Below the pieces are notes generated by a model. That model made no database searches, was not told the DNA's origin, and was given only the letters and a program-made list of their open reading frames with translations. DNA of 64,000 bases from Bacteriovoracia bacterium (lineage in GTDB: Bacteria > Bdellovibrionota > Bacteriovoracia > Bacteriovoracales > Bacteriovoracaceae), in assembly GCA_046570105.1 (NCBI GenBank), contig JBKHVI010000001.1, positions 1 to 64,000 of the forward strand. The letters run 5' to 3'. Positions 31,800-47,539 of the stretch are shown piece after piece (the first letter of the stretch is position 1; the number at the start of each line of letters is the position of its first letter). The position numbers and the translations under genes were made by a program.

Positions 31800-32524
31800 T
31801 GAAACTCATCGTCGGTAATTGGAAAATGAATCAAACGCTCGCGGAAGTGAAAAGCTTCTTTGAGACCATGAAATCTGCCCAACGCCGTCACGAAGCGTGG
31901 ATCGCCCCTCAGGCCCTCCATATTCCACTCGCTCTTTCACTTGCCCCAGCTAGTGTAAAAATTGGCGCGCAAAACTGTAGTGACAAAAAAGCTGGCGCCT
32001 TCACTGGAGAAAACTCGCCGATTAGCCTCAAAGAATTGGGCGCTGATTTTGTTTTAGTGGGCCACTCTGAGCGTCGCCAATTGTTCAACGAAACAGACGC
32101 GACGTGCGCACTTAAAACGAAGCTCGCTCTCGAAACGAACCTCACGGTGATTTACTGCGTAGGTGAAACACTTGCCGAGCGTGAAGCGGGTAACACGATT
32201 AAAGTCGTCACCACTCAATTGCGTACGGGTCTTAAAGACATCGGCACTTGGCAGCCAGGCCAATTGATTATTGCCTATGAACCCGTTTGGGCGATTGGTA
32301 CTGGCAAAGTCGCGACGCCAGCTCAGGCCGAAGAAGTTCACGCCGCCATTCGTTCCGAAATGAAGACCATGCTGGGTACTCAAGGCGAACAAGTCCGTCT
32401 CTTATATGGTGGCAGCGTAAAACCCGATAATGTCGCAGAGCTTATGCAGCAAAAAAACATCGACGGCGCCCTAGTGGGCGGCGCGAGCCTTAAAGCGCAG
32501 GATTTTCTAGCGCTGTGTCAGTGA
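31799..32524 (+). CDS. tpiA: triosephosphate isomerase
   Basis: GNWKMN, GHSERR, AYEPVWAIGTG, LVGGASL. Confidence 0.98.
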   Translation: MKLIVGNWKMNQTLAEVKSFFETMKSAQRRHEAWIAPQALHIPLALSLAPASVKIGAQNCSDKKAGAFTGENSPISLKELGADFVLVGHSERRQLFNETDATCALKTKLALETNLTVIYCVGETLAEREAGNTIKVVTTQLRTGLKDIGTWQPGQLIIAYEPVWAIGTGKVATPAQAEEVHAAIRSEMKTMLGTQGEQVRLLYGGSVKPDNVAELMQQKNIDGALVGGASLKAQDFLALCQ

Positions 32525-32528
32525 ACGT

Positions 32529-32693
32529 GAATTCAAAACTCTAGGGTAAGTCTGAAGCTAATCCAGGTTTAGAAAGACGATATCACTTGAAGACGCCTTA
32601 AGCTTTCTAGTTAGAGTCATTGATTCAAACTGGCATAAGCTCTATATTTTAAATGGTTTCTGCGCCAGTTTGAGACCCTAGAGTTTTGAATTC
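32529..32693. other. structured intergenic element, copy 1 (candidate ncRNA or non-autonomous mobile element)
   Basis: Perfect 19-bp terminal IR (32529-32547 / 32675-32693), internal 10-bp stem (32625-32634 / 32664-32673), flanking 10-bp direct repeat gtcagtgaac; core homologous to 46252-46423. Confidence 0.75.
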
Positions 32694-32756
32694 GTCAGTG
32701 AACCTTATAGCTTTTAAGCAAAAGGGCATGTTACAACTATTGCCCTAGGAGATTTT

Positions 32757-33164
32757 ATGATTACGACCTTGATTGTTTTGCATGTCATCATCTGCGTTCT
32801 TCTCGTGGTGACCGTTCTTCTTCAATTCGGCAAAGGCGCTGAAATGGGTGCAGTTATGGGTGGCGGTGCCTCTCAAGCTGTTTTCTCTAGCTCAAGCAAA
32901 GGCAACTTTTTCACCAAGCTGACTTCAGTTTTGGCGATCGGTTTCATGTTGAATTCAATCGCGCTCACAACGTTGAAGAGCCGCGAAGCTAAAAAATCTC
33001 TCTTTGATGATGAAGCAGAAATTGCTCAACCACTTAATAGTGATGCTGCTCAAGCTGATGCTGCTGCCAAAGCGGCGGCTCCAACTGCTACAGCTCCAGC
33101 TGAAGCAACTGCTCCTCAAGCAGCTGCTCCTGCCACAGCTCCAACAGAAGCTCCTAAGCAGTAA
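32757..33164 (+). CDS. secG: preprotein translocase subunit SecG
   Basis: VLLQFGKGAEMGAVMGGG, two TMs, after tpiA; Ala/Pro-rich tail. Confidence 0.93.
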   Translation: MITTLIVLHVIICVLLVVTVLLQFGKGAEMGAVMGGGASQAVFSSSSKGNFFTKLTSVLAIGFMLNSIALTTLKSREAKKSLFDDEAEIAQPLNSDAAQADAAAKAAAPTATAPAEATAPQAAAPATAPTEAPKQ

Positions 33165-33200
33165 CTAAGAGATTAGTCACAATCCAGTACTAGTAGTTCT

Positions 33201-33225
33201 ATGGGGGCTTCAAGCCCCCATTTTT
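33201..33225 (+). terminator. intrinsic terminator after secG
   Basis: atgggggctt-c-aagcccccat then T tract. Confidence 0.8.
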
Positions 33226-33313
33226 ATTAGTGACTGTACTTATTTAGCAAAATCTATAATTAACTCCCCCCCCCCTCTGGTTTATTAGTGTTAAACATTA
33301 GTAAACTAGCCTA

Positions 33314-34429
33314 ATGAAAACATTCAACTCAGGAAGTTATAAGCAGCAATTTAAATACAAGAGCTTTTCACCTTCCTTTCTTCCAAAAAATCTTATTATT
33401 GAAGATCCAGCGCTCAACTTACTTGTTGCTGAAGCAAGCAGACATCTAGGTGAGCTCAACGCTTTATCGCAGATGGTTCCTAACGTTGACTTGTTTATCC
33501 ATATGCACGTGATGAAAGAAGCGACTCAATCAAGCCGCATTGAGGGTACACAAACAGGATTTGACGAGGCCCTCATGGAGGAAGAGCAAATCCTTCCCGA
33601 AAAAAGAGATGATTGGCGCGAAATTCAAAATTACACCCTGGCAATGAATCATGCTATTGCACGCTTAAACGAACTACCTCTGAGCATGAGATTAGTTAAG
33701 GAAACTCACAAGACACTGATGACAGCAGCAAGAGGTGAAAGCAAGCTTCCAGGTGAAGTCAGATCAAGTCAAAACTGGATTGGTGGCTCCTCGCTCACTG
33801 ATGCATTTTTTATTCCACCTCACAAAGATGAACTATCGAATCTATTGAGCAATTTGGAAGATTTTTGGCATGATGAAAATATTGTACTAGCACCACTCAT
33901 CAAAGCAGCGCTTTCGCACTATCAATTTGAAACGATTCACCCTTTTTTAGATGGTAACGGTAGAATTGGACGCTTGTTAATTACTCTATACCTCTTAGAT
34001 AAAAAAATACTCAAATACCCAGTTCTCTATCTGTCAGATTTTTTTGAGAGAAACAAAGGCTCATATTACGATAGCCTTACTGTTGTTCGATCAAGCCACG
34101 ATATCGGACAATGGCTGCGTTTTTTCATGACAGGCGTTATCGAAACTTCACAAAAGGGAAAGACAACCTTCGAAAAAATACTCTCACTAAAAGCCAAAAC
34201 GGATCAGGAAGGAACGCGACTGGGGAAAAAATCACCTGAACTCTTCCAGTACCTTTATCGTCACCCTGTCACAAATGTAAATTCAGTTGCTTCAAATCTT
34301 AATATGAGTATCCCTGGCGCCAATAATCTGATTGAACGTTTTACAAACGAAAAATATCTTGTGGAATGGACAGGCCATAAACGAAATAGAAGTTTTACAT
34401 TTGAACCTTACTTAAAGATTTTTGTGTGA
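33314..34429 (+). CDS. Fic family protein (class II, with C-terminal HTH-like region)
   Basis: HPFLDGNGRIGR catalytic motif; SSRIEG inhibitory motif N-terminal to it. Confidence 0.93.
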   Translation: MKTFNSGSYKQQFKYKSFSPSFLPKNLIIEDPALNLLVAEASRHLGELNALSQMVPNVDLFIHMHVMKEATQSSRIEGTQTGFDEALMEEEQILPEKRDDWREIQNYTLAMNHAIARLNELPLSMRLVKETHKTLMTAARGESKLPGEVRSSQNWIGGSSLTDAFFIPPHKDELSNLLSNLEDFWHDENIVLAPLIKAALSHYQFETIHPFLDGNGRIGRLLITLYLLDKKILKYPVLYLSDFFERNKGSYYDSLTVVRSSHDIGQWLRFFMTGVIETSQKGKTTFEKILSLKAKTDQEGTRLGKKSPELFQYLYRHPVTNVNSVASNLNMSIPGANNLIERFTNEKYLVEWTGHKRNRSFTFEPYLKIFV

Positions 34430-35175
34430 ACGAAGAAATCTTTGTCGTCCTCCTCTCACTCATCGCTGGCTTCATCGATTCAATCGCCGGTGGCGGTGGG
34501 CTGATCACCATTCCGATGTGGACGCTTGTTTTGGGGCCAGGTGCGCATGTGGTGGCCACCAATAAAGTCGGCGCATTTGTTTCATGTGTCGTTGCTTTGT
34601 GGGTGTATCAGCGGCACCACAAGATTCAGTGGAAAACGGGCATGTGGTTTTTGATCGCCATCTCTGTTGGATCCCTTTGTGGAGCTCAACTCACGGGTCT
34701 AGTATCACCGCTGTTTTTTGCTTGGCTCTTACTCTTGTTGTGCCCATTCATTCTGGTGATTGTCTGGAAAAAAGAGCGTCTCTTTGCCGAGCGACCTGAT
34801 CGACCAGTCTCGCGCAGAAAATTGCTCGCGGCCGGACTCGCGGTGGGAATTTATGACGGCTTCTTTGGACCAGGCGGCGGCACGTTTATGCTACTTGCGC
34901 TCCTGGGACTCACTCAAATGCCCCTGATGGCGGCACTGGCACTCTCCAAACTCTCCAACTCTTTGTCGGCCGGGATATCGCTCGCCAGCTTCACTTGGCA
35001 AGGTTTGGTGGATTGGCGATGGGGAGTTATTGGTGGAGCTTCGATTGTTCTTGGTTCTTTTTTAGGTGCGAGACTCACGACAAGAAAATCATCCCATGTG
35101 GTGAAGCCTGCACTAACGATTGTGGTAATTCTCTTGATGACAAAAATTGTCGTTGATCTGATTAGATCAAATTGA
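34426..35175 (+). CDS. TauE/SafE (TSUP) family transporter
   Basis: AGFIDSIAGGGGLI, ATNK, GIYDGFFGPGGG. Confidence 0.9.
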   Translation: MNEEIFVVLLSLIAGFIDSIAGGGGLITIPMWTLVLGPGAHVVATNKVGAFVSCVVALWVYQRHHKIQWKTGMWFLIAISVGSLCGAQLTGLVSPLFFAWLLLLLCPFILVIVWKKERLFAERPDRPVSRRKLLAAGLAVGIYDGFFGPGGGTFMLLALLGLTQMPLMAALALSKLSNSLSAGISLASFTWQGLVDWRWGVIGGASIVLGSFLGARLTTRKSSHVVKPALTIVVILLMTKIVVDLIRSN

Positions 35176-35773
35176 TTCCCATGACACAGCCGACTTTCTC
35201 TTTATTGATCTGGTCTTCATCGTGCAAATCGCGCGCGGTAAATCCGACTGTAATATGAGGGGCCCAACGCTGCCATTTGAAATCATCCCCTGAGCCACCG
35301 CGTGCGACATAAAGGCGCCAAGCTTCTTGGCGAAAATCTTTCATCGCTGGTGAATCAATGGCAACAAACCAACTGTCTTCACTGCGACCCTTAATTGTGG
35401 CAGTCACTTTTTTGAGACATTTCACTTTGAACTTACTCTTCATCAAGCGCTCTTTGAGCACTAGCTTTTCTACATCTTCCATTTTGAGAACTTGCGACAA
35501 GATACTCCACTCAGGTGGAGTGAGGATGGTGATATGAGCTTCACCACGATGTTGCAGTTTTGCATTAATGGATTTTTCTAAGTTCTGACGAAGCTGATCA
35601 ATCGGTGCAAATGGAAGTGGGACGGCCACCCAATCAGGATGAGAAAGAAAATAAGGTCTCTTTTCAACAGATTCGATTTCTTTTGAAAGAGGAATAGACT
35701 GGATGACTGATTCGGCGTGGGCGACAGAAAGCAGAATAAAAAGTAGGAGGAAACTAAGACTTCTTTTTTTCAT
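35162..35773 (-). CDS. secreted 2H phosphoesterase family protein
   Basis: Signal peptide ending AHA; two HxT motifs (AHITIL, PHITVG). Confidence 0.75.
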   Translation of the reverse strand: MKKRSLSFLLLFILLSVAHAESVIQSIPLSKEIESVEKRPYFLSHPDWVAVPLPFAPIDQLRQNLEKSINAKLQHRGEAHITILTPPEWSILSQVLKMEDVEKLVLKERLMKSKFKVKCLKKVTATIKGRSEDSWFVAIDSPAMKDFRQEAWRLYVARGGSGDDFKWQRWAPHITVGFTARDLHDEDQINKEKVGCVMGINLI

Positions 35774-36908
35774 TTTTTTTATTATCCCCGATCACTCGAA
35801 TTTTACCAAAGTCGGCATTCTGTAATGCTTTCACTTCTTCCAAAGGGAGCTGTGCCCATGGAATGGTCGGATCAAAACGATCTGAGAGTTTTAAGTCGCG
35901 TTTAACATCCGCTTTAACGTAGTCGACATGCTTCTCAAAAATATCAAATAACTTTGGCTCAAGCTTCACACCTCTGAACTTTCTCATAACATTCAAGGCA
36001 TCGGCCACATGGAGCACTTGGTTGTAAGAGCGTTTGGTGGTGATGGCATCAAAGAAATCGGCAATGGTACAGGCCCGGGCCATGGGATGAATATCTTCGC
36101 CAGGGATTTGGCGCGGATAACCTTTCCCGTCCCAGTTTTCATGGTGTTCATGCACAATACGAGCGATGACATTTACATCTAATGATGGATGAACTTTTAC
36201 ATGACCAGACAGGAGAAGTTCCAGACCATAACCTGGATGCAATTTGATGGTTTCATACTCGGCGTCCGACAATCCACCAGGACTGTTGAGAATATGCGTG
36301 GGAATTTTTACTTTACCGAGATCGTGCAACAAACCACCGAGACCAATATTCACTAGATCTTGCCGTGAAGCTTTGGGATGGGCCGCACGCCAAATGCTGA
36401 TGCAATACATGGAAACGTTAATCGAGTGATCGTAAGTGTAAAAATCATGAAAGCTTAAATTACCAATCAAACCTTTGAGATCATCAATACCGTACTCTCC
36501 TAAAAGATCGACCATATTTTCGACGACTTCGCGACAGCCTTCAATATTGGCTTCTAAAAGTTCAGTAGAGAACTCACGATTGCCATCGAAGATTTTTCCC
36601 AAATATTCGAGTGCTGAATCTTTTAAGACTGAGGCTTTCTCAGAATCTTCATACTGATCAGAATGCACCAAACTCTTCATATAGAGATTACGCTGATCTT
36701 CTGGAATATAGAGTTGCAGATATTTTCGTCTGAGATTTTCTAGATCCTCTGTCGAAAGCGCTTCTCCCGCAGGAAAAATGCGCACGAATTTTTCCTTCTC
36801 TTTTAGAGAAGAAGAATTGACGAATAAATCAAAGGGGAGCTTGAGGCCTGTCGTAATGAGGTCATAACGAACAGAGAAAAAACTCCGGTAAACACCCGCT
36901 GTGAGCAT
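35754..36908 (-). CDS. HD-GYP domain phosphodiesterase
   Basis: HSINV, LLHDLGK, HEHHENWDGKGYP, IADFFDAIT. Confidence 0.9.
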   Translation of the reverse strand: MLTAGVYRSFFSVRYDLITTGLKLPFDLFVNSSSLKEKEKFVRIFPAGEALSTEDLENLRRKYLQLYIPEDQRNLYMKSLVHSDQYEDSEKASVLKDSALEYLGKIFDGNREFSTELLEANIEGCREVVENMVDLLGEYGIDDLKGLIGNLSFHDFYTYDHSINVSMYCISIWRAAHPKASRQDLVNIGLGGLLHDLGKVKIPTHILNSPGGLSDAEYETIKLHPGYGLELLLSGHVKVHPSLDVNVIARIVHEHHENWDGKGYPRQIPGEDIHPMARACTIADFFDAITTKRSYNQVLHVADALNVMRKFRGVKLEPKLFDIFEKHVDYVKADVKRDLKLSDRFDPTIPWAQLPLEEVKALQNADFGKIRVIGDNKKNEKKKS

Positions 36909-36961
36909 TCAAAGATTGTAGCATGGGCCTCAAATTCTATGTATTTGGCAGTGCTTATAGG

Positions 36962-36990
36962 CAAAAAAAGGGCCCACCTAAGTGGGCCCA
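36962..36990 (-). terminator. intrinsic terminator after ssb
   Basis: gggcccac-ttag-gtgggccc followed by T7 on the minus strand. Confidence 0.8.
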
Positions 36991-37020
36991 TTGGCAACTT
37001 AATGAGTCAGAGATCAAGGC

Positions 37021-37482
37021 CTAAAATGGGATGTCATCAGAAGCGAAATTAGCTTCAGTTGAAACCTTAAAGTCTTGATTCATTTCAACCGGTGCTGCAC
37101 CTTGGTTGAAGCCAGCGCCATTATCAACATTGCGTTCTGCACCGCGATCAGCAGAAGGGCCGCCAATGAATTGAACTGTGGATGCGTTGATTTCAGTCAT
37201 GTAACGCTTGTTACCGTCTTTGTCGTCCCATGAACGAGTTTGCAGACGGCCTTCAACGAAAGCTTGGCGACCTTTTGAGAGGTACTGGTTACAAAGCTCA
37301 GCGAGCTTGCCCCAGACAACCACACGGTGCCACTCTGTTTTTTCTTGTTTCTGTCCGCCCTTGTCAGTCCACGCTTCAGTGGTAGCAAGAGAGAAATTAC
37401 AAACCGGCGCGCCGCCTGGTGTGTACTTCAACTCTGGGTCTTGACCCAAACGTCCTAGCAAGATGACTTTGTTAACGCTCAT
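37021..37482 (-). CDS. ssb: single-stranded DNA-binding protein
   Basis: [23 protein letters not shown]-terminal DDIPF. Confidence 0.98.
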
Positions 37483-37600
37483 AGAATCTCCTTCGCCTGA
37501 TGGTTAGGCATAAATGGTTTAAGTGATATCCATCACGAACACCTGTTGTATCGCGAACGATTCAGTCAGGAAATAGTAAGGAATCTCACAAGGGCCTACT

Positions 37601-37617
37601 TGCGTACAGCGTGCCAA
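37601..37617 (-). promoter_or_regulatory. sigma54-type promoter facing ssb
   Basis: Minus strand TTGGCACG-CTGT-ACGCA with exact GG-N10-GC spacing. Confidence 0.5.
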
Positions 37618-37683
37618 TAGAGAGATGAGCGAAGTACTTGAAACACTTCATGTGAAAAAAAACAAAATGAAAATTATTGGACG

Positions 37684-38064
37684 TCAGTTGGAAATTTCTG
37701 GACTCTTTTGAGGCTTTCTTGCGCGAAGCACCGCCGATTCGGGATGCTCGCGAAGATGGTCTTCTACATGACGACGAGCGATGCGCACATCGCGCTTATA
37801 CCAAGTGGGATCAAAGCCACAGACTGTGCACTTGAGTTCGCGTCGATAAAGTAATTTGCGTGAGAATTCGTAGCTGGCCCAAATGAAAAAGAAGCTGCCC
37901 AAAGTTTTCCATTCTAAAAAATCAAACATCAGCCAAGTCAGAACAACTGTTAGCAAGGCCATTTGCAAGTAATGGAGTGGTGAAAGATGACGCTGATAAC
38001 TCATGCTACGCGGGCTGCGACATAAGGCACAGTAACAATCTCTTTTAGCAGCTTTTTGAAACAT
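37684..38064 (-). CDS. membrane protein with two CxxC motifs
   Basis: CALC, two TM segments, CTVCGFDP; GAGGTG RBS. Confidence 0.7.
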   Translation of the reverse strand: MFQKAAKRDCYCALCRSPRSMSYQRHLSPLHYLQMALLTVVLTWLMFDFLEWKTLGSFFFIWASYEFSRKLLYRRELKCTVCGFDPTWYKRDVRIARRHVEDHLREHPESAVLRARKPQKSPEISN

Positions 38065-38295
38065 TCTTCACCTCACAGAGTATTAAACCACGTCTCGGGG
38101 CAAGACTGAGACTGGGCAGAAATGGCCGCCGAGTCTCCTGCGAGACTCGGGGTAAAGAAGTTGTTGGTGGCGGGGTACTAACAGGTGGGATGCAGAGGGG
38201 GGACAGCCTAGCCAGCTTACGTTCCACATCCAGACCCAAGGCTTCCGTGCCTGGATGCTTTACACACTCCAAATCCCGTACCAAAATACTCGTAA

Positions 38296-40992
38296 ATGAT
38301 ATCAAGAACTTCCCCCAGCCTAGTGACAAAATGCGCCAGTGAGCGGGGCCAAATCAGCATCTTTTTTGCCTCCAGCTTGATCGTTTTGATTTCGATCATC
38401 GCTTTCGTCATCAATATTGGATTGTTCGTTAAGGCGAAGATCAACTTGCAAAATGCGACTGATGCCTCCGCCTATGCCGGTGCAGCTGTTCAAGCCCGTA
38501 TGCTCACTCGCATCGGTTACATGAATTGGGAAATGCGCAACGTCTACAAAGAGTGGATGTTCAAATACTACGTGCTGGGAAATCTCAACATCGACGAAGT
38601 CGAGAATCCTGATATCGCTGGGGATAACATCAGTTTTGCCATGCGACCGGATCCCAACCTCAGTGCCGCTCAAGGTGGAACTGATATTTATAATTTTCCC
38701 TCTGTGTGTCTACACTATGCGGGCGTTCCCACTAACGTCTGTCGTCGCTACGCTGTTCCCGGTATCCCGCGCTTTGAACCCACTAACCTCGTCGGTATTG
38801 ATGAGACCACTTCTTCATTTATTGATGCCATTGTAAAAGAAAAATCGAGTGACTGCTCCAAGCGCACGCAACTGAATTACAACGTCACAAATATGTGGGC
38901 CTACAACTTGAATGATGGCACCACTTCCAGTTCAACTGCTTTTGCAGATGCGCCACAGATTGCTGCTGATCGAGTGGGAGCGTGGCCCAAGGCCGTTGAA
39001 CTTGCCATTCGCACGCGCTCACTTGAATTTGCGATGAATCGTGCTCCTATTTCAGAGGGAGTTTGTAACCCCAACACAGGCCAAGGCTCGCCGGGCTGTC
39101 GAAGTGTAAAAGATTTTGAATCGCAACAACACTACGGTAATGAACGAATCATTAAGGCCTATTATTCAGGCATGAGAAATTTGGGAAGTGATCGCGACAA
39201 TGAAATGCGCGCGAGCTACACCATGTTTGAACTTCCTCCTACTCAAGTTGAAATACCTTCTGAAAATTCTCTCAGTGCACTTTTGATGAGTCCCGATGCA
39301 CGTAATGCGGGTAAATGGTTTGTTGATTTACAACTCCACCTCGTCAACTACGCAACTTTTTTCACCGCGCTCATTGCTCGTGACGATAGTCTTTCTGTCT
39401 CTGGGCAGACGGTGGTAGCAGAAGGTGCTTGTGACGTTTCCAAAATCGCCATTCCGGTTCCTGGTTATCCGTTAGGTTTTATAAAAAATCCAGATGTCCT
39501 CACCTACTACGCAGTTCGTGGAGAAGCAAAATTTCAAGGGCTCTTTAATCCCTTCTCTGGCCCCGTAAAACTGACTGCATGGGCCGCCGCTAAACCCATG
39601 GGTGGAAGAATTGGCCCCGCATTGTTTCGTCAGAGTACAGAAAACACTATTGCTTCACGAACGACGGCTAACAAGAAACGCTCGACTGCTTACTTGAGTG
39701 GCCTCAACCTCACAGATGTACCCAGAAAGGGTGGCGGTGGTAATGTTCCGCTAGGTCAATATGCTCCTGGTATGCCCATTCCAATTAATATGTCGGCAAA
39801 CCCCGAGGGACGCTTCTGGATCAGCGACGCTGGAGACGATGTCGGCGGATGGATTGCGGGACCTAGTATTGTCTTTGGAATTCCTAACTTGGTTTATGAT
39901 TTTGATTTAGATGCAACCGAATCAGGCGAAGTGACTTATCAATCAGGCAGCCAGGACACCAATGTTATCACTCCGGCAGCAGTAGGAAGCGAAGACAACT
40001 ATTCCAAAGGACTTTTTAAAACCAGTCAGTTCAAAAAATTTAAAGAGAATCTAGTTGGAACAGATGATCCGCTAGCGATTGCCACTTCGATCAGCAAAGT
40101 GCGTGCCCCGACTCGTTACGAGGCGGCTAATTATACGGTTCCTGTGCCATCGGAACTCAGCGTGAACGAAGATATTGATGGTGGCACGATGGATACTTTT
40201 GGTTTTGTGACTGGCCCCAACGAAGATGATCGGCGATTTGCGCAAATTTATGCGCCTCTTTATGGGGCGCAAGAAGATGCCATGTATAAAAATGCACCCG
40301 ACGTCGTAAACGCTATTCACACTTTCATGCAGCAACAATCGCAGGCCATGACAAAATACCGCAATTCGATGAATCAAGTGGCGAAAAGAATTTTTCTAGA
40401 TAACCCCGATAAATATCGAGATGCGGCTGAACGAATTTCAAATTTTGATTTTAACCAAGATGCGAACTCAAGCAATCCACTTAACTGCAGAAGTATTACG
40501 GGATCGTTCTTGTGGTTTTATTTTAATGGTGAGGGCAGTCTCGCTGTCAGTAATGCCGATGGACTTTGCCCGACGAGTTTCAAAACTAGTATTGAAACTT
40601 ATTTCACGACCCTAAGCGATAGGTTCAATCCCACTTCACACATTATTGAATATTCGTACAAAGAGGATATGCCTGGCTTAGCTAATTTTTCGCAACTTTT
40701 AACGGGCTATATGCCTGGGCCATTACGTGGTGCAGACCAGAGAGGAATATTTAATACTCCGTTTGGAGGGGCCACTAACTCCGAAACAATGAGACGCACA
40801 GGATACTCCACCAAGCTCGTAACAGTGAAATCGCTGACTGGTTCAGGCAACTATGGTCTAGGGGCCGCTGTAGGATTTGCCATGTACTCTGAGGGTAATC
40901 CCACAACGCTCCAGGAAGACGTAAAACAGAATGCTTTACGCAATGCTTTGGACCTGACCCTAAGCGGCGTCCCTGCAACTATCAATCACTGA
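38296..40992 (+). CDS. large Tad domain (TadE/G-like pseudopilin N-terminus) protein
   Basis: ERGQISIFFA cleavage-type motif, TM helix, LQNATDASAYAGA. Confidence 0.8.
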   Translation: MISRTSPSLVTKCASERGQISIFFASSLIVLISIIAFVINIGLFVKAKINLQNATDASAYAGAAVQARMLTRIGYMNWEMRNVYKEWMFKYYVLGNLNIDEVENPDIAGDNISFAMRPDPNLSAAQGGTDIYNFPSVCLHYAGVPTNVCRRYAVPGIPRFEPTNLVGIDETTSSFIDAIVKEKSSDCSKRTQLNYNVTNMWAYNLNDGTTSSSTAFADAPQIAADRVGAWPKAVELAIRTRSLEFAMNRAPISEGVCNPNTGQGSPGCRSVKDFESQQHYGNERIIKAYYSGMRNLGSDRDNEMRASYTMFELPPTQVEIPSENSLSALLMSPDARNAGKWFVDLQLHLVNYATFFTALIARDDSLSVSGQTVVAEGACDVSKIAIPVPGYPLGFIKNPDVLTYYAVRGEAKFQGLFNPFSGPVKLTAWAAAKPMGGRIGPALFRQSTENTIASRTTANKKRSTAYLSGLNLTDVPRKGGGGNVPLGQYAPGMPIPINMSANPEGRFWISDAGDDVGGWIAGPSIVFGIPNLVYDFDLDATESGEVTYQSGSQDTNVITPAAVGSEDNYSKGLFKTSQFKKFKENLVGTDDPLAIATSISKVRAPTRYEAANYTVPVPSELSVNEDIDGGTMDTFGFVTGPNEDDRRFAQIYAPLYGAQEDAMYKNAPDVVNAIHTFMQQQSQAMTKYRNSMNQVAKRIFLDNPDKYRDAAERISNFDFNQDANSSNPLNCRSITGSFLWFYFNGEGSLAVSNADGLCPTSFKTSIETYFTTLSDRFNPTSHIIEYSYKEDMPGLANFSQLLTGYMPGPLRGADQRGIFNTPFGGATNSETMRRTGYSTKLVTVKSLTGSGNYGLGAAVGFAMYSEGNPTTLQEDVKQNALRNALDLTLSGVPATINH

Positions 40993-41063
40993 TGCTTGCC
41001 CAACAAATTCGCGGCTTTTATACTAGATAAAGTTTTTCCTCCCCCTTCAGCAAAGGATCATTT

Positions 41064-41642
41064 GTGGCCGCTAAAAAAGTAAAAAAAGCTCCTGCAAAAA
41101 AAGCAGCTAAAAAACCAGCTAAGAAAGTCGCTGCTAAGAAACCAGCGAAAAAAGTCGCCGCTAAAAAGCCGGCGAAAAAAGTCGCCGCTAAGAAGCCAGC
41201 GAAAAAAGTAGCTGCCAAGAAGCCAGCGAAAAAAGTAGCTGCCAAGAAGCCAGCGAACAAAGCTGCTGCTCCTGCTAAGAAAGCGGCACCAAAAGCTGCT
41301 GCTAAAGAAAGCAAGAAAGCCAAGGTCGTCGTTCTTCCTGCTGTTGTTCCTGCAACACCTGCTCATGCAAAAACGGCTGCCTTTGACGAAGACTACAATT
41401 CTGATGGCGCTGATGAATTTGACGCTGACTTTGATGATGAAGAAGAAGAAACTCCTGCCAAGCCAGCTGCTGACGAGCCAGCTGAAGAAGAGGAAGAAGA
41501 GGGATCTTATGGTTACGGTTGGGGCTATGAGGAAGGCCTTGATAACCCAGAGGAAGCCGAGGAAGAAGACGAAATCTTTGATGAAGATGAAGAGTACGTT
41601 AAGGGCCCCAAAAAGCCTGAGACAGAGGAAGAAGACGATTAG
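41064..41642 (+). CDS. histone H1-like basic repeat protein with acidic C-terminal half
   Basis: KKPAKKVAA repeats followed by D/E-rich tail; AAAGGA RBS, GTG start, own terminator. Confidence 0.8.
   Translation: MAAKKVKKAPAKKAAKKPAKKVAAKKPAKKVAAKKPAKKVAAKKPAKKVAAKKPAKKVAAKKPANKAAAPAKKAAPKAAAKESKKAKVVVLPAVVPATPAHAKTAAFDEDYNSDGADEFDADFDDEEEETPAKPAADEPAEEEEEEGSYGYGWGYEEGLDNPEEAEEEDEIFDEDEEYVKGPKKPETEEEDD
41109..41259 (+). repeat. 27-bp coding tandem repeat (KKPAKKVAA), about 5.5 units
   Basis: Repeated aa(a/g)aa(a/g)cc(a/g)gc(g/t)aa(a/g)aaagt(c/a)gc(t/c)gc(t/c) with synonymous variation. Confidence 0.85.
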
Positions 41643-41663
41643 TCAGTTCAACATGGAATACTC

Positions 41664-41694
41664 AGAAGTGGCCCAAACGGGCCACTTCTTTTTT
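41664..41694 (+). terminator. intrinsic terminator
   Basis: agaagtggccc-aaac-gggccacttct plus T tract. Confidence 0.85.
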
Positions 41695-41702
41695 AAGGCG
41701 AT

Positions 41703-41954
41703 ATGAAAAAACTAGCTCTCTATTATTTTGATGAATGCCCTTACTGCCAGATCGTCATTCGTGCCTTGAGCGAGACTAAGCTCACTGAACATGTCACAAT
41801 GAATAATATAAGAAAGGTCGCAGCTCATCGAGAAAAGCTCATGAATGATACGGGAAGATCAACCGTGCCATGCCTCTATATCGATGACAAACCAATGTTT
41901 GAGAGTCGTGATATTGCCCGCTGGCTTCATGATTATGCCAAAACGTTGAAGTAA
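41703..41954 (+). CDS. glutaredoxin-like protein
   Basis: CPYC, TVPCLYID, ESRDI. Confidence 0.88.
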   Translation: MKKLALYYFDECPYCQIVIRALSETKLTEHVTMNNIRKVAAHREKLMNDTGRSTVPCLYIDDKPMFESRDIARWLHDYAKTLK

Positions 41955-41964
41955 GGAGTCAGTA

Positions 41965-43260
41965 GTGGAAATTCGAGATCCCGTCCATGGCTCAATCGCA
42001 ATCCACGATGCAGAGATTCCCATTATCGATCATCCGCTCTTTCAGCGATTGAGAAATATTAAACAACTGGGTTTTTCTGAATTTGTTTTTCCTGGTGCCA
42101 CTCACACTCGCTACTTACATTCAATTGGCGTAATGAATGTGGGCACGCTCGTTTTTAATGCTCTCTTCAAAGACAACCTCTACGACAAAGAAGTTTTGCG
42201 TCTACGTCAAACACTTCGACTTGGCTGTCTTCTCCATGACATTGGTCATGCTCCCCTCTCTCACGCCACCGAGAGTGTCATGCCAATGGTGGCTGAACTG
42301 AAACTTCCTAAACGGTTTGATGCGGGTAAAGCTCGCCAGGCTTCTCACGAAGACTACACTCTCAAAAGTATTGTGGACTCGAGTTTTACGAGTTCTTTCA
42401 AAGCCGTTCGCGCTGAATTCGGTGTCACTCCAGAAGCCGTTGCCGAATTAGTCTTAGGCGAAACCAGCGATCCTGCTTATTTTAAAATCGGCGGCGTTGA
42501 TTATTTCCCACTACTCCACCAACTTGTCTCATCAGAGATGGACTGTGATCGCATGGATTATCTCTTGCGTGACAGCTATTTTTGCGGCGTGAGCTACGGG
42601 AAATTTGATCTCGACTGGATTATTGATAATCTTAAATCATGTGAAGAAAATGGCAGATCTTACTTAGGAATTAGTGAACGAGCCGTCTCAACGTTCGATG
42701 ATTTTCTCTTAAGCCGCTTTCATATGTTTATGATGGTGTATTTCCACTATCGTGCCGTCTGCCTCGAACAAATGCTTATGCGTTACTTCAAAGCCTCAGG
42801 CACTTCTGAATATGCTATTCCTGCCGACATTGAAGCGTATCTCGATCACGATGACCCACATCTTTGGAAAATTCTACGGAAGAGCCAAGATCCTTGGGCG
42901 AAACGAGTCGTCAGAAATCACATCCCTCGCAAAGTGATGGAAACATTTGGGCCAGACGGTGAAGACCGCATGGCTCAACTTGAGACATTCCTAAAAACAG
43001 CCAACATTGATTACATTAAGTGTTCCTCCAAGGGCAGACTTTCAAAATATTACGCCGACTCAGCCCCACCGAATACTTATCCAATGAAAGTTTTGCGTGA
43101 AGCTCCTCTGGCCGGCGACAAACGTCACATCAATGTAAATCAAGCGACAGATCTCTTTGAGAAATACTCTAAGAGCCACGCAGTCACTCGTCTCCATCTC
43201 GATTACGATGAACTCTCTGCAAATGAGCAGAAGGCCATCCTCGATATTGTGAGGGCCTAG
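41965..43260 (+). CDS. HD-domain phosphohydrolase (SAMHD1/YwfO-like dNTPase family)
   Basis: RDPVHG, FQRLRNIKQLG, HTRYLHSIG, LLHDIGHAPLSH, DCDRMDYLLRDS. Confidence 0.9.
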   Translation: MEIRDPVHGSIAIHDAEIPIIDHPLFQRLRNIKQLGFSEFVFPGATHTRYLHSIGVMNVGTLVFNALFKDNLYDKEVLRLRQTLRLGCLLHDIGHAPLSHATESVMPMVAELKLPKRFDAGKARQASHEDYTLKSIVDSSFTSSFKAVRAEFGVTPEAVAELVLGETSDPAYFKIGGVDYFPLLHQLVSSEMDCDRMDYLLRDSYFCGVSYGKFDLDWIIDNLKSCEENGRSYLGISERAVSTFDDFLLSRFHMFMMVYFHYRAVCLEQMLMRYFKASGTSEYAIPADIEAYLDHDDPHLWKILRKSQDPWAKRVVRNHIPRKVMETFGPDGEDRMAQLETFLKTANIDYIKCSSKGRLSKYYADSAPPNTYPMKVLREAPLAGDKRHINVNQATDLFEKYSKSHAVTRLHLDYDELSANEQKAILDIVRA

Positions 43261-43261
43261 C

Positions 43262-43921
43262 GTGCAAAAGATATTCCTCTATTTCACTCTAGTCATTTTC
43301 TACTTGGGGTTGTCGAAAACACTTTCGCCGACTGAGTTAGGAATGGACTATGTACCCAATGAGAGAGGATTATCGAAAATCATTCCAGGTCAAAACGTCA
43401 CAGTTATCTTAACTGACACTCATGCCACCGGCTTTGTGATTAAAACTTATTATCAAAAATATCGTTTGGTTTATGGCTTTCAAGGCGTAGAAGAAATGAT
43501 CGTACGCACGTCACGGGATTTCGCTTTGAAAAACCGCCAAAACATCGGCATGTCACTCTTTAGGCGACAAGATGGCGCAGAAGAAAGCCTACCCATGCCA
43601 CCAGGTGTAACCTATGTCGGGCATAGAGGATTTGGGGAATGGCGAGCTGACAAAAAAGGTGTGATGCGCTGGAGATTTTATCGCGCTTACAAAAACCTCC
43701 CTCGCTATTTAGGCTGGGGACGTTGGCGTCCTGATGTGACCTTCCAAGAGGACTACATCAGTTTCCGTGAAAGGAAAAAACCATTCTATGGGCGCGAACA
43801 AGAGTTTGGCTCGGATGGAAAAATCACAAAAAAGAATTTTCCCAATTTTTTCAAACCTGAACGTCAAAAGAAAGTTGATCTCAAAAGCTTGTTAGTTCGC
43901 TACTTAAAAGAGAACTTCTAA
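43262..43921 (+). CDS. hypothetical membrane-anchored protein
   Basis: N-terminal TM; PPGVTYVG..GEW aromatic-rich region. Confidence 0.7.
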   Translation: MQKIFLYFTLVIFYLGLSKTLSPTELGMDYVPNERGLSKIIPGQNVTVILTDTHATGFVIKTYYQKYRLVYGFQGVEEMIVRTSRDFALKNRQNIGMSLFRRQDGAEESLPMPPGVTYVGHRGFGEWRADKKGVMRWRFYRAYKNLPRYLGWGRWRPDVTFQEDYISFRERKKPFYGREQEFGSDGKITKKNFPNFFKPERQKKVDLKSLLVRYLKENF

Positions 43922-43938
43922 GAGAGAAAGGCAGTTAT

Positions 43939-44841
43939 ATGAATGAAATTTTTGATCGACTCCTCATTCGCATCATTTTGGTGGCCATCGTTTGTGCCAT
44001 GCTCTTTATCTATAAATATGCCCATGTACTGTTTTATCCTAGTATGAAGCAGCAAATGACCAAACGATTCTATCCGGCACAAAATCCCGCCGACACCCTC
44101 CACATGTTTTCGCGTCTCATTGGTTTCGCTGTCATTTTAAGCTCTCTCGGTTTCGATGAAAGCCATGGCCTTTTTCTTAGTATTTTCCATTTCCTCGTTT
44201 GGGGCACTCTCACTTGTGGGCTTTATCTCATCTCACTCTTCATTATCGAAAGCATCGTGCTTTATAACTTCGAATACAAAGATGAGATCCTCAAACGCCA
44301 GAACTTAAGCTACGCGACAGTTTGTTTTTCCCATGCCCTTGCCGTGGCCTATGTGACACGAGCCGTAGTCGATCAATCAGAAAACTCTTTGGTTATTCTT
44401 TTTGTACTCTGGCTACTCTCGATGGTTTTTTTGGGCTTCGGTTCACGCTACTACTCTCTTTTAACAAAATTGAATTTTGACCGTTTGATCACTCAACAGA
44501 AGCCGACGATTGCCCTATCTTATATGGGTTTTACCATCGGCCTTGGATGGTTGGTGGGAGAGAGCTTCACCCAAGAACACTACGACATCACCATGTACTG
44601 CGTTCAGGTATTGCTCAAAATGCTCTTGGCGCTGATTATCTACCCACTTTTTAAACGCGGACTTGAGTATGTCTTCAAAACCCGCATCTATGCCGCTGGG
44701 CCCGACTCTGCTCCTCAGGACGTCGATGTCCAGAACTGGGGCTATGGATTTTACGAGTGTGCCCTCTTTATCGCGTCAGCAATCCTGACTTCGATGATCG
44801 TGAATCATATCCAATTCGGCACGATTTACCCCTTCTTCTAA
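43939..44841 (+). CDS. multi-pass membrane protein, DUF350-like duplication
   Basis: About 8 TM segments; DEILKRQNLSYA resembles the DUF350 pattern. Confidence 0.6.
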   Translation: MNEIFDRLLIRIILVAIVCAMLFIYKYAHVLFYPSMKQQMTKRFYPAQNPADTLHMFSRLIGFAVILSSLGFDESHGLFLSIFHFLVWGTLTCGLYLISLFIIESIVLYNFEYKDEILKRQNLSYATVCFSHALAVAYVTRAVVDQSENSLVILFVLWLLSMVFLGFGSRYYSLLTKLNFDRLITQQKPTIALSYMGFTIGLGWLVGESFTQEHYDITMYCVQVLLKMLLALIIYPLFKRGLEYVFKTRIYAAGPDSAPQDVDVQNWGYGFYECALFIASAILTSMIVNHIQFGTIYPFF

Positions 44842-44891
44842 GCCACTCTCCAGAAGAGGTAAAATAGAGCTTGGGACAGGAGGTCCCGAGC

Positions 44892-45428
44892 ATGGGAATT
44901 CGCGAAAAAATTCAAAGCAACGTTTTTCATCTCATCAATCTTTTGACTGGTCGCCTCGCTGCGGTTGAGCGTCGTGTGATGAGATTGCAAGAAGAAGTTG
45001 ATCGCCAACTCGCCATTCAACGTAGTCAGATGGTGCGAATCAAAAATCGCGAAGAAATCAGCGATGACTTTATTTTACGTGGAAAAAGCTACAACGATCT
45101 TTCTCCCGAAAAAGCCTGGAAGTTATTCCAACAAAAAGATTTTGATTTTGTTTTCTTGGATGTCTCTCACAGCGATTTTGAACCTGAAGGTCAGCGCCCA
45201 GGTGTGACGATCCATATTCCATTAGAAGAACTCGAGCGTCGCTGGGATGAAATTCCTAATCACTCCACCCCTGTTTTTATTATTTCCGAAGAAGGCCTGC
45301 GCTCAGTTTTGGCCTGCGACTATCTGGCCACCAAGGGCTACTTCAATTGCAATAATGTGTCTGGGGGATGGAAATTCTGGCCAGGGCATCGCTTAGTAGA
45401 TGTCTCTAAGCGAGAAGCGAGCGCTTAA
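44892..45428 (+). CDS. coiled coil + rhodanese-like domain protein
   Basis: FLDVS, IHIPLEEL, GLRS, NVSGGWKFW; AGGAGG RBS. Confidence 0.75.
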   Translation: MGIREKIQSNVFHLINLLTGRLAAVERRVMRLQEEVDRQLAIQRSQMVRIKNREEISDDFILRGKSYNDLSPEKAWKLFQQKDFDFVFLDVSHSDFEPEGQRPGVTIHIPLEELERRWDEIPNHSTPVFIISEEGLRSVLACDYLATKGYFNCNNVSGGWKFWPGHRLVDVSKREASA

Positions 45429-45473
45429 CTTCAAGCCTTAGGCTCAACTGATGAATTTGAGATTTTCAAGCGC

Positions 45474-45929
45474 TTAGATCAGCGTGCCTTTCTTCTGACT
45501 GCTGATTAATTCTTTGTGCAAGTTCTCAAGCATCAACTCCACACGATCAAGCTCAACCTCACCTAGTTTGCGTGAGTAATGAAGCTCGATATCGTTAATA
45601 ACCTGCAATAGATTGATTTTGAATTTCTCGCCATAATCAGTGAGTTTCACCAACTGCTCGCGCTTATCCACATCTGAGTTATGACGTTTAACGTAGCCGC
45701 GTCTTTCGAGCTCGTTGAGATGGCTCGTCATGGTCTGCTTTTTGAGACCGCAGGCCTTGCCAATTAATTTAATCGAGGGTGAGTCGTGTTCGCTAAGGAA
45801 CATGAGGATCTCTAAAAACGATGCTCTCAAATCGGTGAAACCTCTACCTTGGAGTTCATGAATGAGCTCTACGCTGTAGAGGCGATAGATCTGTTTAACT
45901 AAACTTCCGATGTGGGCTATTCGTCGCAT
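45474..45929 (-). CDS. MarR family transcriptional regulator
   Basis: KQTMTSHLNELERRGYVKR..DKREQLVKLTDYG. Confidence 0.9.
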   Translation of the reverse strand: MRRIAHIGSLVKQIYRLYSVELIHELQGRGFTDLRASFLEILMFLSEHDSPSIKLIGKACGLKKQTMTSHLNELERRGYVKRHNSDVDKREQLVKLTDYGEKFKINLLQVINDIELHYSRKLGEVELDRVELMLENLHKELISSQKKGTLI

Positions 45930-45963
45930 ATAGTATGAAGATAATACTATGCGACCCTATTGA

Positions 45964-46176
45964 TTACAACTGTAACTTAGTAAGAACTCGGCTGATCTCT
46001 TCAGGCAATGGCTTCTGCCCTTGGGCCTTACTTACTTCACCGCTAGATGCTTGAAATTCCTCAACTCCCTCAACCCAAAGATCCCATTTCACGCGCTCTT
46101 TAAGACTCACAGGAGCTTCAGCTAAAGCCGCAGATGAAAGTGTTAGGGCCAAAAGAATGAAAGCAAATAAGCGCAT
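45964..46176 (-). CDS. small secreted hypothetical protein
   Basis: MRLFAFILLALTLSSAALA signal peptide; GAGGAG RBS. Confidence 0.7.
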   Translation of the reverse strand: MRLFAFILLALTLSSAALAEAPVSLKERVKWDLWVEGVEEFQASSGEVSKAQGQKPLPEEISRVLTKLQL

Positions 46177-46251
46177 GTAAGTCTCCTCGTAGACCAAGGA
46201 TAAGGGATAACCCCACGTGCGTGGGGTTCCTGTGTAAAACTTATCAGGGGC

Positions 46252-46423
46252 TTTTAGATATATAACTCACAAGTAAAGTCCGAAGCTTAAATCAATTTAA
46301 AATCAAAGATTGATTGAGGACGCCTCAAGCATTCTACTAGAATGTGCCGTTCATCCTGGAACAGAACTCCCATTACTAATGGGGCCCTGAACCAGGATGA
46401 GACTTGTGAGTTATATTCTAAAA
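46252..46423. other. structured intergenic element, copy 2 (candidate ncRNA or non-autonomous mobile element)
   Basis: 22-bp terminal IR with one bulge (perfect 15 bp at 46260-46274 / 46402-46416), internal tcatcctgg/ccaggatga stem; core homologous to 32529-32693. Confidence 0.75.
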
Positions 46424-47539
46424 TCAGTTAAAGAAATTTCGACTATTACTGATCGCCGTGACCATTCCAATACAGACACCATAAGTGAGCATCGCGGATC
46501 CGCCATAACTCATCATGGGTAAGGGGATACCCACAATCGGCATAAGGCCTGAGACCATGCTCATATTAATAAAGGTGTGCCAGAAGAAGATCGCCATGAT
46601 GCCAATTACGAGAACTGAGTCGTAGAAGCGCTGGACCGAGGTCGCTAACCAAATCAAGCGTGTCATTAGAATCAAATATAAAAGCATAAGGAAAACTGAG
46701 CCGACAAAACCATGCTCTTCATTAAAAATGGCAAACACGAAGTCGGTATGGTTTTCCGGAAGATACTGCAAAGAGGCCTGCGAAGAGTTTTTAAAACCCT
46801 TTCCAAACAGACGACCCGAACCAATCGCGATCTCAGATTGAATAGCGTTGTAACCTGAACCTTTGGCATCGGCGTAGGGATCAATGAAGGTATGAATACG
46901 CTTACGTTGATATTCACGTAGTCCGAAGTTATACATTAGGACACCGCCAACCAAGGCAACAAGTCCTAGGGAAATAATCGTCTTCCACTTCAATCGCTTG
47001 TAGAAAATCACTAAGGAGAAAATAAGCAACAGGAGCATTCCGGTACCTAAGTCAGGTTGGAGAATAACCATGACGGCAGGAATTCCGGCGATGAGTCCTG
47101 GAACAGGAAGATCTGTGAGCGAAAGCTCCCTTTCCGGAGAAACACGAGAAAAATAGCGGGCCAGCGCCATCGCCAATCCCAGCTTCATAAACTCAGAAGG
47201 CTGCATACGAATCGGACCTAAATTCAACCAACGTTGCGCCCCCATCCCCACATCACCCATCACCATCACCAAAATCAACAGGAAGAAAGTCACGCCATAA
47301 GCGAAATAAGAGACGCGCTCAAATGTTTTAGGATTGAAAACAATACTGACAACGATCGCGACAACTGTAGCGAGTAGCCACCACATAATTTGTGAACGGT
47401 AGAGGTCACCAAGGCCTTCATGACTTTGCGAGTGAGTTGCCGAGTAGAGATTGAGAACGCCAATGAGAAAGATGGCAAAAAAGCTTCCAATAAAGCTGAA
47501 ATCGTATCGTTTAATATATTGCAGAATTGTTTGATACAT
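46424..47539 (-). CDS. rodA: rod shape-determining protein RodA
   Basis: GAQRW, QPSEFMK, QPDLGT, LPENHTDF, SYGGS; follows PBP2. Confidence 0.95.
   Translation of the reverse strand: MYQTILQYIKRYDFSFIGSFFAIFLIGVLNLYSATHSQSHEGLGDLYRSQIMWWLLATVVAIVVSIVFNPKTFERVSYFAYGVTFFLLILVMVMGDVGMGAQRWLNLGPIRMQPSEFMKLGLAMALARYFSRVSPERELSLTDLPVPGLIAGIPAVMVILQPDLGTGMLLLLIFSLVIFYKRLKWKTIISLGLVALVGGVLMYNFGLREYQRKRIHTFIDPYADAKGSGYNAIQSEIAIGSGRLFGKGFKNSSQASLQYLPENHTDFVFAIFNEEHGFVGSVFLMLLYLILMTRLIWLATSVQRFYDSVLVIGIMAIFFWHTFINMSMVSGLMPIVGIPLPMMSYGGSAMLTYGVCIGMVTAISNSRNFFN

What the first reader, a model, noticed from the sequence alone, without database searches (positions are those of the whole stretch)
32529..46423. 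Two-member family of ~170-bp structured intergenic elements with unrelated arms but a conserved, covarying 127-nt core
Seen: element 1 (32529-32693, tpiA-secG gap) and element 2 (46252-46423, directly after the rodA stop) each close with a long terminal inverted repeat (19 bp perfect; 22 bp with one bulge). The two IRs differ in sequence except for the innermost GT/AC. Both interiors are 127 nt (32548-32674; 46275-46401) and share ordered motifs: GT-AA(A)GTCYGAAGCT, TTGARGACGCCTYAAGC, TTCTA..TAGA, TTCAnnCTGG, CCAGnnTGAG-AC. The differences are compensatory: tcaAActgg/ccagTTtga versus tcaTCctgg/ccagGAtga, and gtcT/Agac versus gtcC/Ggac. The gtcY/Rgac pairing crosses the gct/agc pairing, as in a pseudoknot. 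Inference: selection acts on a single-stranded fold rather than on end sequence, unlike ordinary MITEs. Options are a small ribozyme (UAA..GAAGC..CCUYAAGC loosely recalls twister, but does not match it), an orphan retron-type msr-msd RNA (outer IR, short stems, long 3' hairpin) with the RT elsewhere, or an ssDNA-mobilised element. I do not recognise it as a described family.
Basis: partly seen in the sequence, partly recalled or inferred. Interest (0 to 1): 0.85.

Follow-up and report, generated by a model that had tools for sequence, protein, structure and literature searches.

The report
Folded passenger of miniature transposons
The two elements are members of a family of folded 160-base sequences, with at least 32 copies in this predatory bacterium, that miniature transposons carry in related species and that keeps its shape after losing the transposon ends, which suggests it has a job of its own.

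Summary
The core is a three-way junction: 26 of 30 pairs covary; the proposed pseudoknot is unsupported (61% paired). No Rfam match. In relatives the core sits inside 215-237-bp MITEs whose terminal repeats match 1-1.25-kb IS1-like elements of three end types, with 9-bp target duplications. The window copies lack these ends; element 1 has a 10-bp direct repeat and empty sites in relatives. At orthologous sites stems and junction motifs stay conserved while loops drift. Best reading (0.5): a MITE passenger retained as a 3'-end RNA structure after its ends were lost. Open anomaly: 8 end-less copies sit between intact 9-13-bp repeats 175-185 bp apart with no end remnant, which leaves room for a separately mobile unit (0.25). 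Retron and HUH links failed. No expression data. The scan had not noted this element before.

The parts
32529..32693 (+). Element 1: TIR-less copy of the structured core, closed by stem P1 (19 bp), sense to tpiA-secG
   Evidence: R2 125 bits
32517..32526 (+). Left direct repeat GTCAGTGAAC (first 8 bases are the end of tpiA)
32694..32703 (+). Right direct repeat GTCAGTGAAC (non-coding, intact); element plus one repeat = 177 bp absent in relatives
32548..32555 (+). AA-GUCU-GA: junction, 5' strand of P2 and first GA of the tandem GA pairs
32589..32596 (+). GA-AGAC-GC: second GA, 3' strand of P2 and conserved GC
32625..32673 (+). Stem P3 (TCAAACTGGC / GCCAGTTTGA) with variable loop of about 30 nt
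46252..46423 (+). Element 2: TIR-less copy, P1 22 bp with one bulge, abuts the rodA stop, antisense to rodA; no direct repeat found
   Evidence: R2 131 bits
46276..46323 (+). P2 module AA-GUCC-GA ... GA-GGAC-GC of element 2
46351..46400 (+). Stem P3 (TCATCCTGG / CCAGGATGA) of element 2
31799..32524 (+). tpiA, host gene upstream of element 1
   Evidence: TIGR00419 over cut-off
32757..33164 (+). secG, host gene downstream of element 1
   Evidence: TIGR00810 over cut-off
46424..47539 (-). rodA, whose stop codon abuts element 2
   Evidence: TIGR02210 over cut-off

Best explanation
The elements are old, end-less copies of a MITE interior. SHOWN: a 160-nt three-way junction (P1 15-21 bp; P2 GYCY/RGRC with tandem GA; P3 9-10 bp; three variable linkers of near-constant length) is enclosed in relatives by the terminal inverted repeats of IS1-like elements, giving 215-237-bp MITEs with 9-bp target duplications; matching autonomous elements are present, three of them in this genome. 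INFERRED: the transposase acting in trans spread the MITE; insertions survived mainly at gene 3' ends; the ends were then lost from most fixed copies while the fold stayed under purifying selection. INFERRED, untested: the fold acts on the co-transcribed RNA (3'-end protection, nuclease processing site or a protein-binding site built on the AA-GUCC-GA/GA-GGAC-GC module), as reported for other 3'-located MITEs.
For: Outer repeats around the core in 19 of 75 aligned copies (type 1a), 4 more of type 1b, 5 of type 2 plus 2 variants read by eye. The same repeats bound 1036-1039-bp elements and a 1253-bp element with Zn-ribbon/HTH/D-D-N proteins. 9-bp duplications at 5 of 34 type-1a and 7 of 17 type-2 elements (0.03 expected for type 1a, type-2 background higher). 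Types 1a and 1b start 27 nt before the core in all tree clades inspected, pointing to one origin. Paralogs at least 90% alike occur only among end-bearing copies, 9 of 26 against 0 of 48. One relative's copy (L079), orthologous to an end-less G000 copy, keeps a right-end remnant (p 0.001-0.01), and L147 has decayed ends on both sides. At 5 orthologous sites: differences P3 0/100, P2 1/40, conserved unpaired 2/65, against loops 26/136 and 23/136 and 40% at four-fold sites; 10 of 14 P1 differences form compensatory pairs. End-less copies have fewer broken pairs (18 in 51 copies) than type-1a copies (46 in 19). 17 of 28 classed sites are convergent gaps and none divergent, against 522 and 508 of 2905 gaps genome-wide. 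14 of 17 other MITE interiors with these ends fold no better than shuffles (z above -2), so the fold is not needed for transposition.
Against: No end remnant in 64 flanks of the 32 G000 copies (3 at p<=0.05, chance level); only 1 of 36 other end-less flanks shows one, and the apparent remnant at the rodA site is not significant (p 0.24). Eight end-less copies lie between exact 9-13-bp repeats spaced 175-185 bp, and in 5 of the 6 G000 cases a non-coding repeat copy is intact: erosion of two 25-bp ends should have been slower than decay of these repeats. No strand preference in co-directional gaps (6 sense, 5 antisense) and no G-U excess over A-C (P1 14 vs 16). The core is deleted at several orthologous sites, leaving P1 alone, so it is dispensable per site. 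The tree is poorly resolved.
Confidence: 0.5

Rival explanations
1. The core is a mobile unit of about 170 nt in its own right (RNA or single-stranded DNA) that inserts without IS ends, duplicating 9-13 bp, and was captured more than once by IS1-like ends. One route would be nuclease trimming of the long stem of a MITE transcript followed by re-insertion.
For: Exact repeats of 9 bp or more flank 7 of 32 G000 copies (0.29 expected; one low-complexity case dropped), plus L077 and L529 in other genomes; spacing 175-185 bp in all 8 kept; intact non-coding repeats; no end remnants in G000; the core occurs with two end families whose transposases are about 20% alike; its fold is worse where ends are present; element 1 is skipped by contigs of a near relative.
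Against: No recent end-less paralogs (0 of 48 at 90%). No RT in 5 of 6 carrier genomes. No element with P1-type ends around an ORF in G000. The offset of the repeat from P1 varies on each side. Remnant at L079.
Confidence: 0.25
2. The conserved module is a self-cleaving or ligand/protein-binding RNA of a new class that the MITE picked up; cleavage or binding in 3' UTRs is what selection keeps. Compatible with either mobility model.
For: Sequence-invariant junction bases (A18 71/75, G20 72/75, GA+GA 64/75, G72 71/75) while P1 and P3 change sequence wholesale between lineages and keep pairing; linker lengths near constant.
Against: No ribozyme or riboswitch family among 4227 Rfam models even at E up to 5-10; no supported pseudoknot; both orientations to host transcripts occur.
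Confidence: 0.1
3. No function of the fold: covariation arises from template switching at quasi-palindromes plus gene conversion among copies.
For: P1 arms are almost purely Watson-Crick with no G-U bias; P1 extends by copying the opposite flank at C44 and C103 (read); the mechanism is described in PMC7202029 (listing and abstract start only).
Against: The 4-bp P2, whose strands are about 40 nt apart, covaries at three positions; unpaired junction bases stay fixed at orthologous sites while neighbouring loops drift.
Confidence: 0.1
4. REP/REPIN-like substrate of the HUH (Y1) transposase family found in this genome.
For: A 3' half abuts the stop of one Y1-like gene in G000 and its ortholog; 4 of 5 genus members with the Y1 family carry the core.
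Against: 1 of 9 Y1 copies only; the family has its own upstream motif; it was not found in G161 (96% complete) or G136 (100%), which carry the core, and is present in many genomes without a core match; target duplications are not expected from Y1 enzymes (recalled).
Confidence: 0.02
5. Orphan retron msr-msd or retro-copied msDNA.
For: Size and outer repeat fit; a G near the end of P1 is 72/75 conserved; a precedent is cited in the reference list of PMC6868368 (titles only).
Against: No RT match in G000, G003, G006, G161, G136; the one in G007 has a stop and no core nearby.
Confidence: 0.03

Closest known systems
bcr1 of the Bacillus cereus group (about 155 bp; PMC3184786, passages read)
   Same: Dispersed, patchy between strains, flanked by direct repeats, cruciform-like fold with two inner stem-loops kept by compensatory changes.
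   Different: bcr1 has 5-bp repeats and, in the passages read, no named transposase; here candidate autonomous elements are identified, repeats are 9-13 bp, and the core exists with three end types and without ends. No sequence comparison was made.
3'-located MITEs ERIC, Correia/NEMIS, YPAL (PMC3184786, passages read)
   Same: Non-autonomous, intergenic, at gene 3' ends; reported there to be co-transcribed and to alter mRNA stability.
   Different: ERIC has TA ends and conserved terminal repeats; here the terminal repeats are lost and an inner junction module is what persists. Co-transcription is untested here.
IS1 family (NF033558, PF03400) for the partner elements
   Same: Zn ribbon, HTH, RNase-H-type acidic motifs, about 24-bp IRs, 9-bp duplications; nearest named Atlas clusters are IS1.
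   Different: Score 36 bits against a cut-off of 100; no Pfam hit; the third triad position is N, not E, a pattern recalled for the IS1595 family. Called IS1-like, not filed.
REP/REPIN with RAYT
   Same: Same habitat: multi-copy, intergenic, convergent gaps.
   Different: No REP-type short hairpin unit, target duplications present, no consistent link to a Y1 gene.

Membership tests
MITE | Short, non-coding, multi-copy and dispersed | tested here: met
   32 full copies on many contigs, intergenic
MITE | Terminal inverted repeats shared with an autonomous IS | tested here: met
   Met for copies in relatives
MITE | Terminal inverted repeats on the window copies themselves | tested here: not met
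   No remnant in 64 G000 flanks
MITE | Target-site duplication and empty sites | tested here: met
   9 bp at end-bearing copies; 10 bp and empty sites for element 1; none for element 2
MITE | Mobilised in trans by the cognate transposase | not testable with these tools
   Inferred from shared ends and recent paralogs
IS1 family (partner element) | NCBIfam NF033558 over cut-off | tested here: not met
   36 and 31 bits vs 100; 34.6 for the type-2 N-terminal piece
IS1 family (partner element) | Zn ribbon + HTH + DDE triad | tested here: inconclusive
   CxxC, HTH-like stretch, D119 and D198 conserved; third position N244
Known self-cleaving ribozymes (twister, hammerhead, pistol, hatchet, HDV, others in Rfam 15) | Match to a family covariance model | tested here: not met
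Known self-cleaving ribozymes (twister, hammerhead, pistol, hatchet, HDV, others in Rfam 15) | Pseudoknot as in twister/pistol/HDV (recalled) | tested here: not met
   61% paired; no alternative pair above APC 0.28
Known self-cleaving ribozymes (twister, hammerhead, pistol, hatchet, HDV, others in Rfam 15) | Self-cleavage | not testable with these tools
   bench test
Retron msr-msd | Linked reverse transcriptase | tested here: not met
   G000 is 88% complete
Retron msr-msd | msDNA produced | not testable with these tools
   bench test
REP/REPIN-RAYT | Repeats flank the HUH gene and co-occur with it | tested here: not met
   1 of 9 genes; not found in 2 near-complete carriers

The most novel reading that the evidence does not exclude
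A structured unit of about 170 nt with an invariant AA-GUCC-GA/GA-GGAC-GC module inserts into bacterial chromosomes without transposon ends, making 9-13-bp duplications (a SINE-like or single-strand capture route, possibly from nuclease-trimmed MITE RNA), and has hitch-hiked on unrelated IS1-like ends at least twice; its fold is needed for that second route or for a catalytic or binding activity.
Probability: 0.25. Interest if true: 0.85.

Novelty: new variant of a known kind. Interest (0 to 1): 0.58.

Why it matters
It offers a rare series, within one bacterial family, from active MITE to end-less but conserved RNA-like element, with autonomous partners, empty sites and orthologous pairs all in hand, so domestication of a MITE can be tested directly. 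If the repeat-flanked end-less copies were inserted as such, it would be a mobility route for small structured nucleic acids in bacteria that needs neither IS ends nor a resident reverse transcriptase.

Tried and rejected
Rfam at gathering score and by E-value: only sub-threshold terminator-like or snoRNA hits. Y1/RAYT link: looked good at first, rejected. Core inside an autonomous IS: not in 34 IS loci. P1 arms as degenerate IS ends: an alternative hairpin forms in two type-1b MITEs, but statistics are weak (31 of 150 non-independent arms above the 95th percentile, consensus not significant, comparison chosen after seeing the data); left open. Terminator and promoter scans: no consistent site. 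Viral contigs: 0 of 40 pattern hits score with the model; metagenome contigs 7 of 72; phage and plasmid blastn gave only chance hits. Expression: no RNA holder listed; contigs of three RNA-labelled runs did not cover the element; this is no evidence either way. One search used a wrong spacer; one search was a low-specificity pattern with hits at control level outside G000; two G061 hits from it did not score with the model. Literature: searches and a term search in one preprint showed no description of this element; ISfinder, subscription journals and supplements were not searched, so an ISfinder entry for the partner IS or a supplementary listing of the motif is not excluded.
Full report
Observation. 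An HMM built from the pair and iterated on the whole genome found 32 full-length and 4 partial copies; the reversed genome gave nothing better than E 0.77. The genome is 3.0 Mb and 88% complete. The tool does not name it, but every titled contig that scored with my model is labelled Bacteriovoracaceae, Bacteriovoracia or Halobacteriovoraceae.

Anatomy. Alignments of 39 and 52 copies give a three-way junction: P1 (15 or more pairs), a 2-3-nt junction ending AA, P2 (GYCY/RGRC) continued by tandem GA opposite GA, a linker of about 30 nt starting GC, P3 (9-10 pairs) and one purine before P1. In the 52-copy set 26 of 30 pairs show a change on both sides; covariation is 0.42 against 0.13 in shuffles (0 of 500) and at most 0.14 for slid partners; relatedness inflates such counts. 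P3 changes sequence wholesale between lineages and keeps pairing, while the P2 module hardly changes. The proposed pseudoknot pairs in 61% of cells and no other pairing stands out. Rfam has no match.

Range. An exact P3 pattern hit 3 of 10 other genomes of the genus and 0 of 30 others. Models found the core in 5 of 151 family genomes, 11 of 51 genomes of a second genus and 0 of 127 genomes outside the family. These searches score only 19-58 candidates per genome, so they give lower bounds.

Vehicle. Longer flanks showed outer inverted repeats around the core in relatives. Type 1a also bounds 1036-1039-bp elements, two in this genome (C3, C11), encoding a 294-aa protein; type 1b matches the ends of a third, 49% identical element on C38 and encloses four cores in G007; type 2 bounds a 1253-bp element and five near-identical cores in G136, with two variants in G232 read by eye. 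The proteins resemble IS1 transposases but miss the cut-off and carry D-D-N. A 9-bp duplication stands out at the expected offset. The transposase family is in 50 of 151 family genomes, far wider than the core; the core was in none of 34 IS loci, and 14 of 17 other MITE interiors with these ends are unstructured. So the core is a passenger, not a requirement of transposition.

Window copies. Neither has outer repeats. The tpiA-secG gap is 49-58 bp in 7 relatives against 232 here, and G006 matches both flanks; contigs of one public run skip exactly 177 bases, the element plus one repeat (a second joint of 185 has unknown letters between; precise loss would look the same as an empty site). At the rodA site G007 keeps both P1 arms with the interior gone, and 8 other relatives with sequence there show no core.

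Selection. At 5 orthologous sites in a close relative, P3, P2 and unpaired conserved bases differ at 0/100, 1/40 and 2/65 positions, loops at 17-19%, pooled four-fold sites at 1526/3769. End-less copies are better paired than end-bearing ones (copies are not independent). Sites are biased to convergent gaps; 4 of 32 copies could not be classed. Against a simple sense-strand RNA: equal sense and antisense copies in co-directional gaps and no G-U excess; only the tandem GA marks one strand, and it would be stable in single-stranded DNA too (recalled). Template switching can explain P1 but hardly P2 and the junction bases.

Direction of change. For loss of ends: the same 27-nt offset for types 1a and 1b across clades, recent paralogs only among end-bearing copies (collapsed repeats in assemblies may hide some), and a remnant at L079 (1 of 36 end-less flanks tested, so borderline after correction). 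Against: no remnant in G000, and 8 end-less copies between exact 9-13-bp repeats at 175-185 bp (the eighth, L529, counted by hand, where it is 1 of 7 end-less copies), with intact non-coding repeat copies in 5 of 6 G000 cases. That IS1 makes duplications of varying length is recalled, not checked. I weigh this as 0.5 for the MITE-then-domestication reading and 0.25 for an independently mobile unit.

Rejected partners. The Y1-like gene beside one partial copy fails on linkage and co-occurrence. Reverse transcriptase is not found in 5 of 6 carriers.

Comparison. It works like bcr1 and the 3'-located MITEs described in PMC3184786 (passages read). The end-bearing copies meet the testable MITE criteria; the window copies do not and are best called MITE-derived. 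PMC6868368 was seen only as two reference lines, PMC7202029 only as a listing, 10.64898/2026.10.21.760802 only as term passages, with no mention of this group or of MITEs. Earlier notes of this scan describe a different structured repeat beside a RAYT gene in the same genome; sequence and word look-ups returned nothing for this element.

Verdict. Real, undescribed in the sources searched, a new variant of a known kind; interest 0.58, carried by the conserved junction module, the three end types and the unexplained repeat-flanked end-less copies.

Noticed in passing
G000 C33:17232-17864 and eight more loci (L011:2233-2865, L049, L053, L056, L058, L060, L061): A nine-copy family of about 205-aa HUH (Y1)-like genes, below Pfam and NCBIfam cut-offs, each with ACATATGCCCCWWTCAA before the start and a second inverted copy inside the gene; in G008 the motif forms inverted pairs upstream, REPIN-like. 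In 38 of 238 genomes of the order.
   Followed up: partly
L214:1501-2537, L222:1501-2580, G000 C38:27615-28701, L288:1501-2753: A widespread IS1-like family with N at the third triad position and no Pfam hit; L222 has a tandem duplication of one end.
   Followed up: partly
L271-L297: MITEs with type-2 ends in one genus are all 229-258 bp long but have unrelated interiors from genome to genome, suggesting a length constraint and repeated capture.
   Followed up: partly
G000 C29:8003-8040, C9:43455-43503, C13 near 34180, C6 near 22236; L309: P1-only hairpins left after loss of the interior, with short new loops; possible terminators.
   Followed up: partly
G000 genome-wide, e.g. C76 near 9035: A further repeat family with GGTGTCA/TGACACC arms (8-9 exact copies of several 16-mers) and a nine-copy repeat containing GGTGGTGTAAGAAATCTTGTGTAAATT.
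   Followed up: no
upstream of Y1-like genes and inside the long end of type-1a MITEs: A shared GTTTCA-N4-TGAA-like box, seen by eye; perhaps a host regulator site.
   Followed up: no
L336:380-640, L337:400-660 (G061): Two related intergenic stretches with a P2-like GTCCGAAGC...TTGAGGAC module in another conserved context; no score with the full model.
   Followed up: partly
L520, L521: Two divergent end-less copies lie 9-30 nt before a same-strand start codon, that is in a 5' rather than 3' position.
   Followed up: no
window 46205-46230: Separate hairpin AACCCCACG-TG-CGTGGGGTT between element 2 and a small ORF; kept in G007.
   Followed up: no
L513:1126-2370: A reverse transcriptase gene split by a stop in G007, type not determined.
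   Followed up: no
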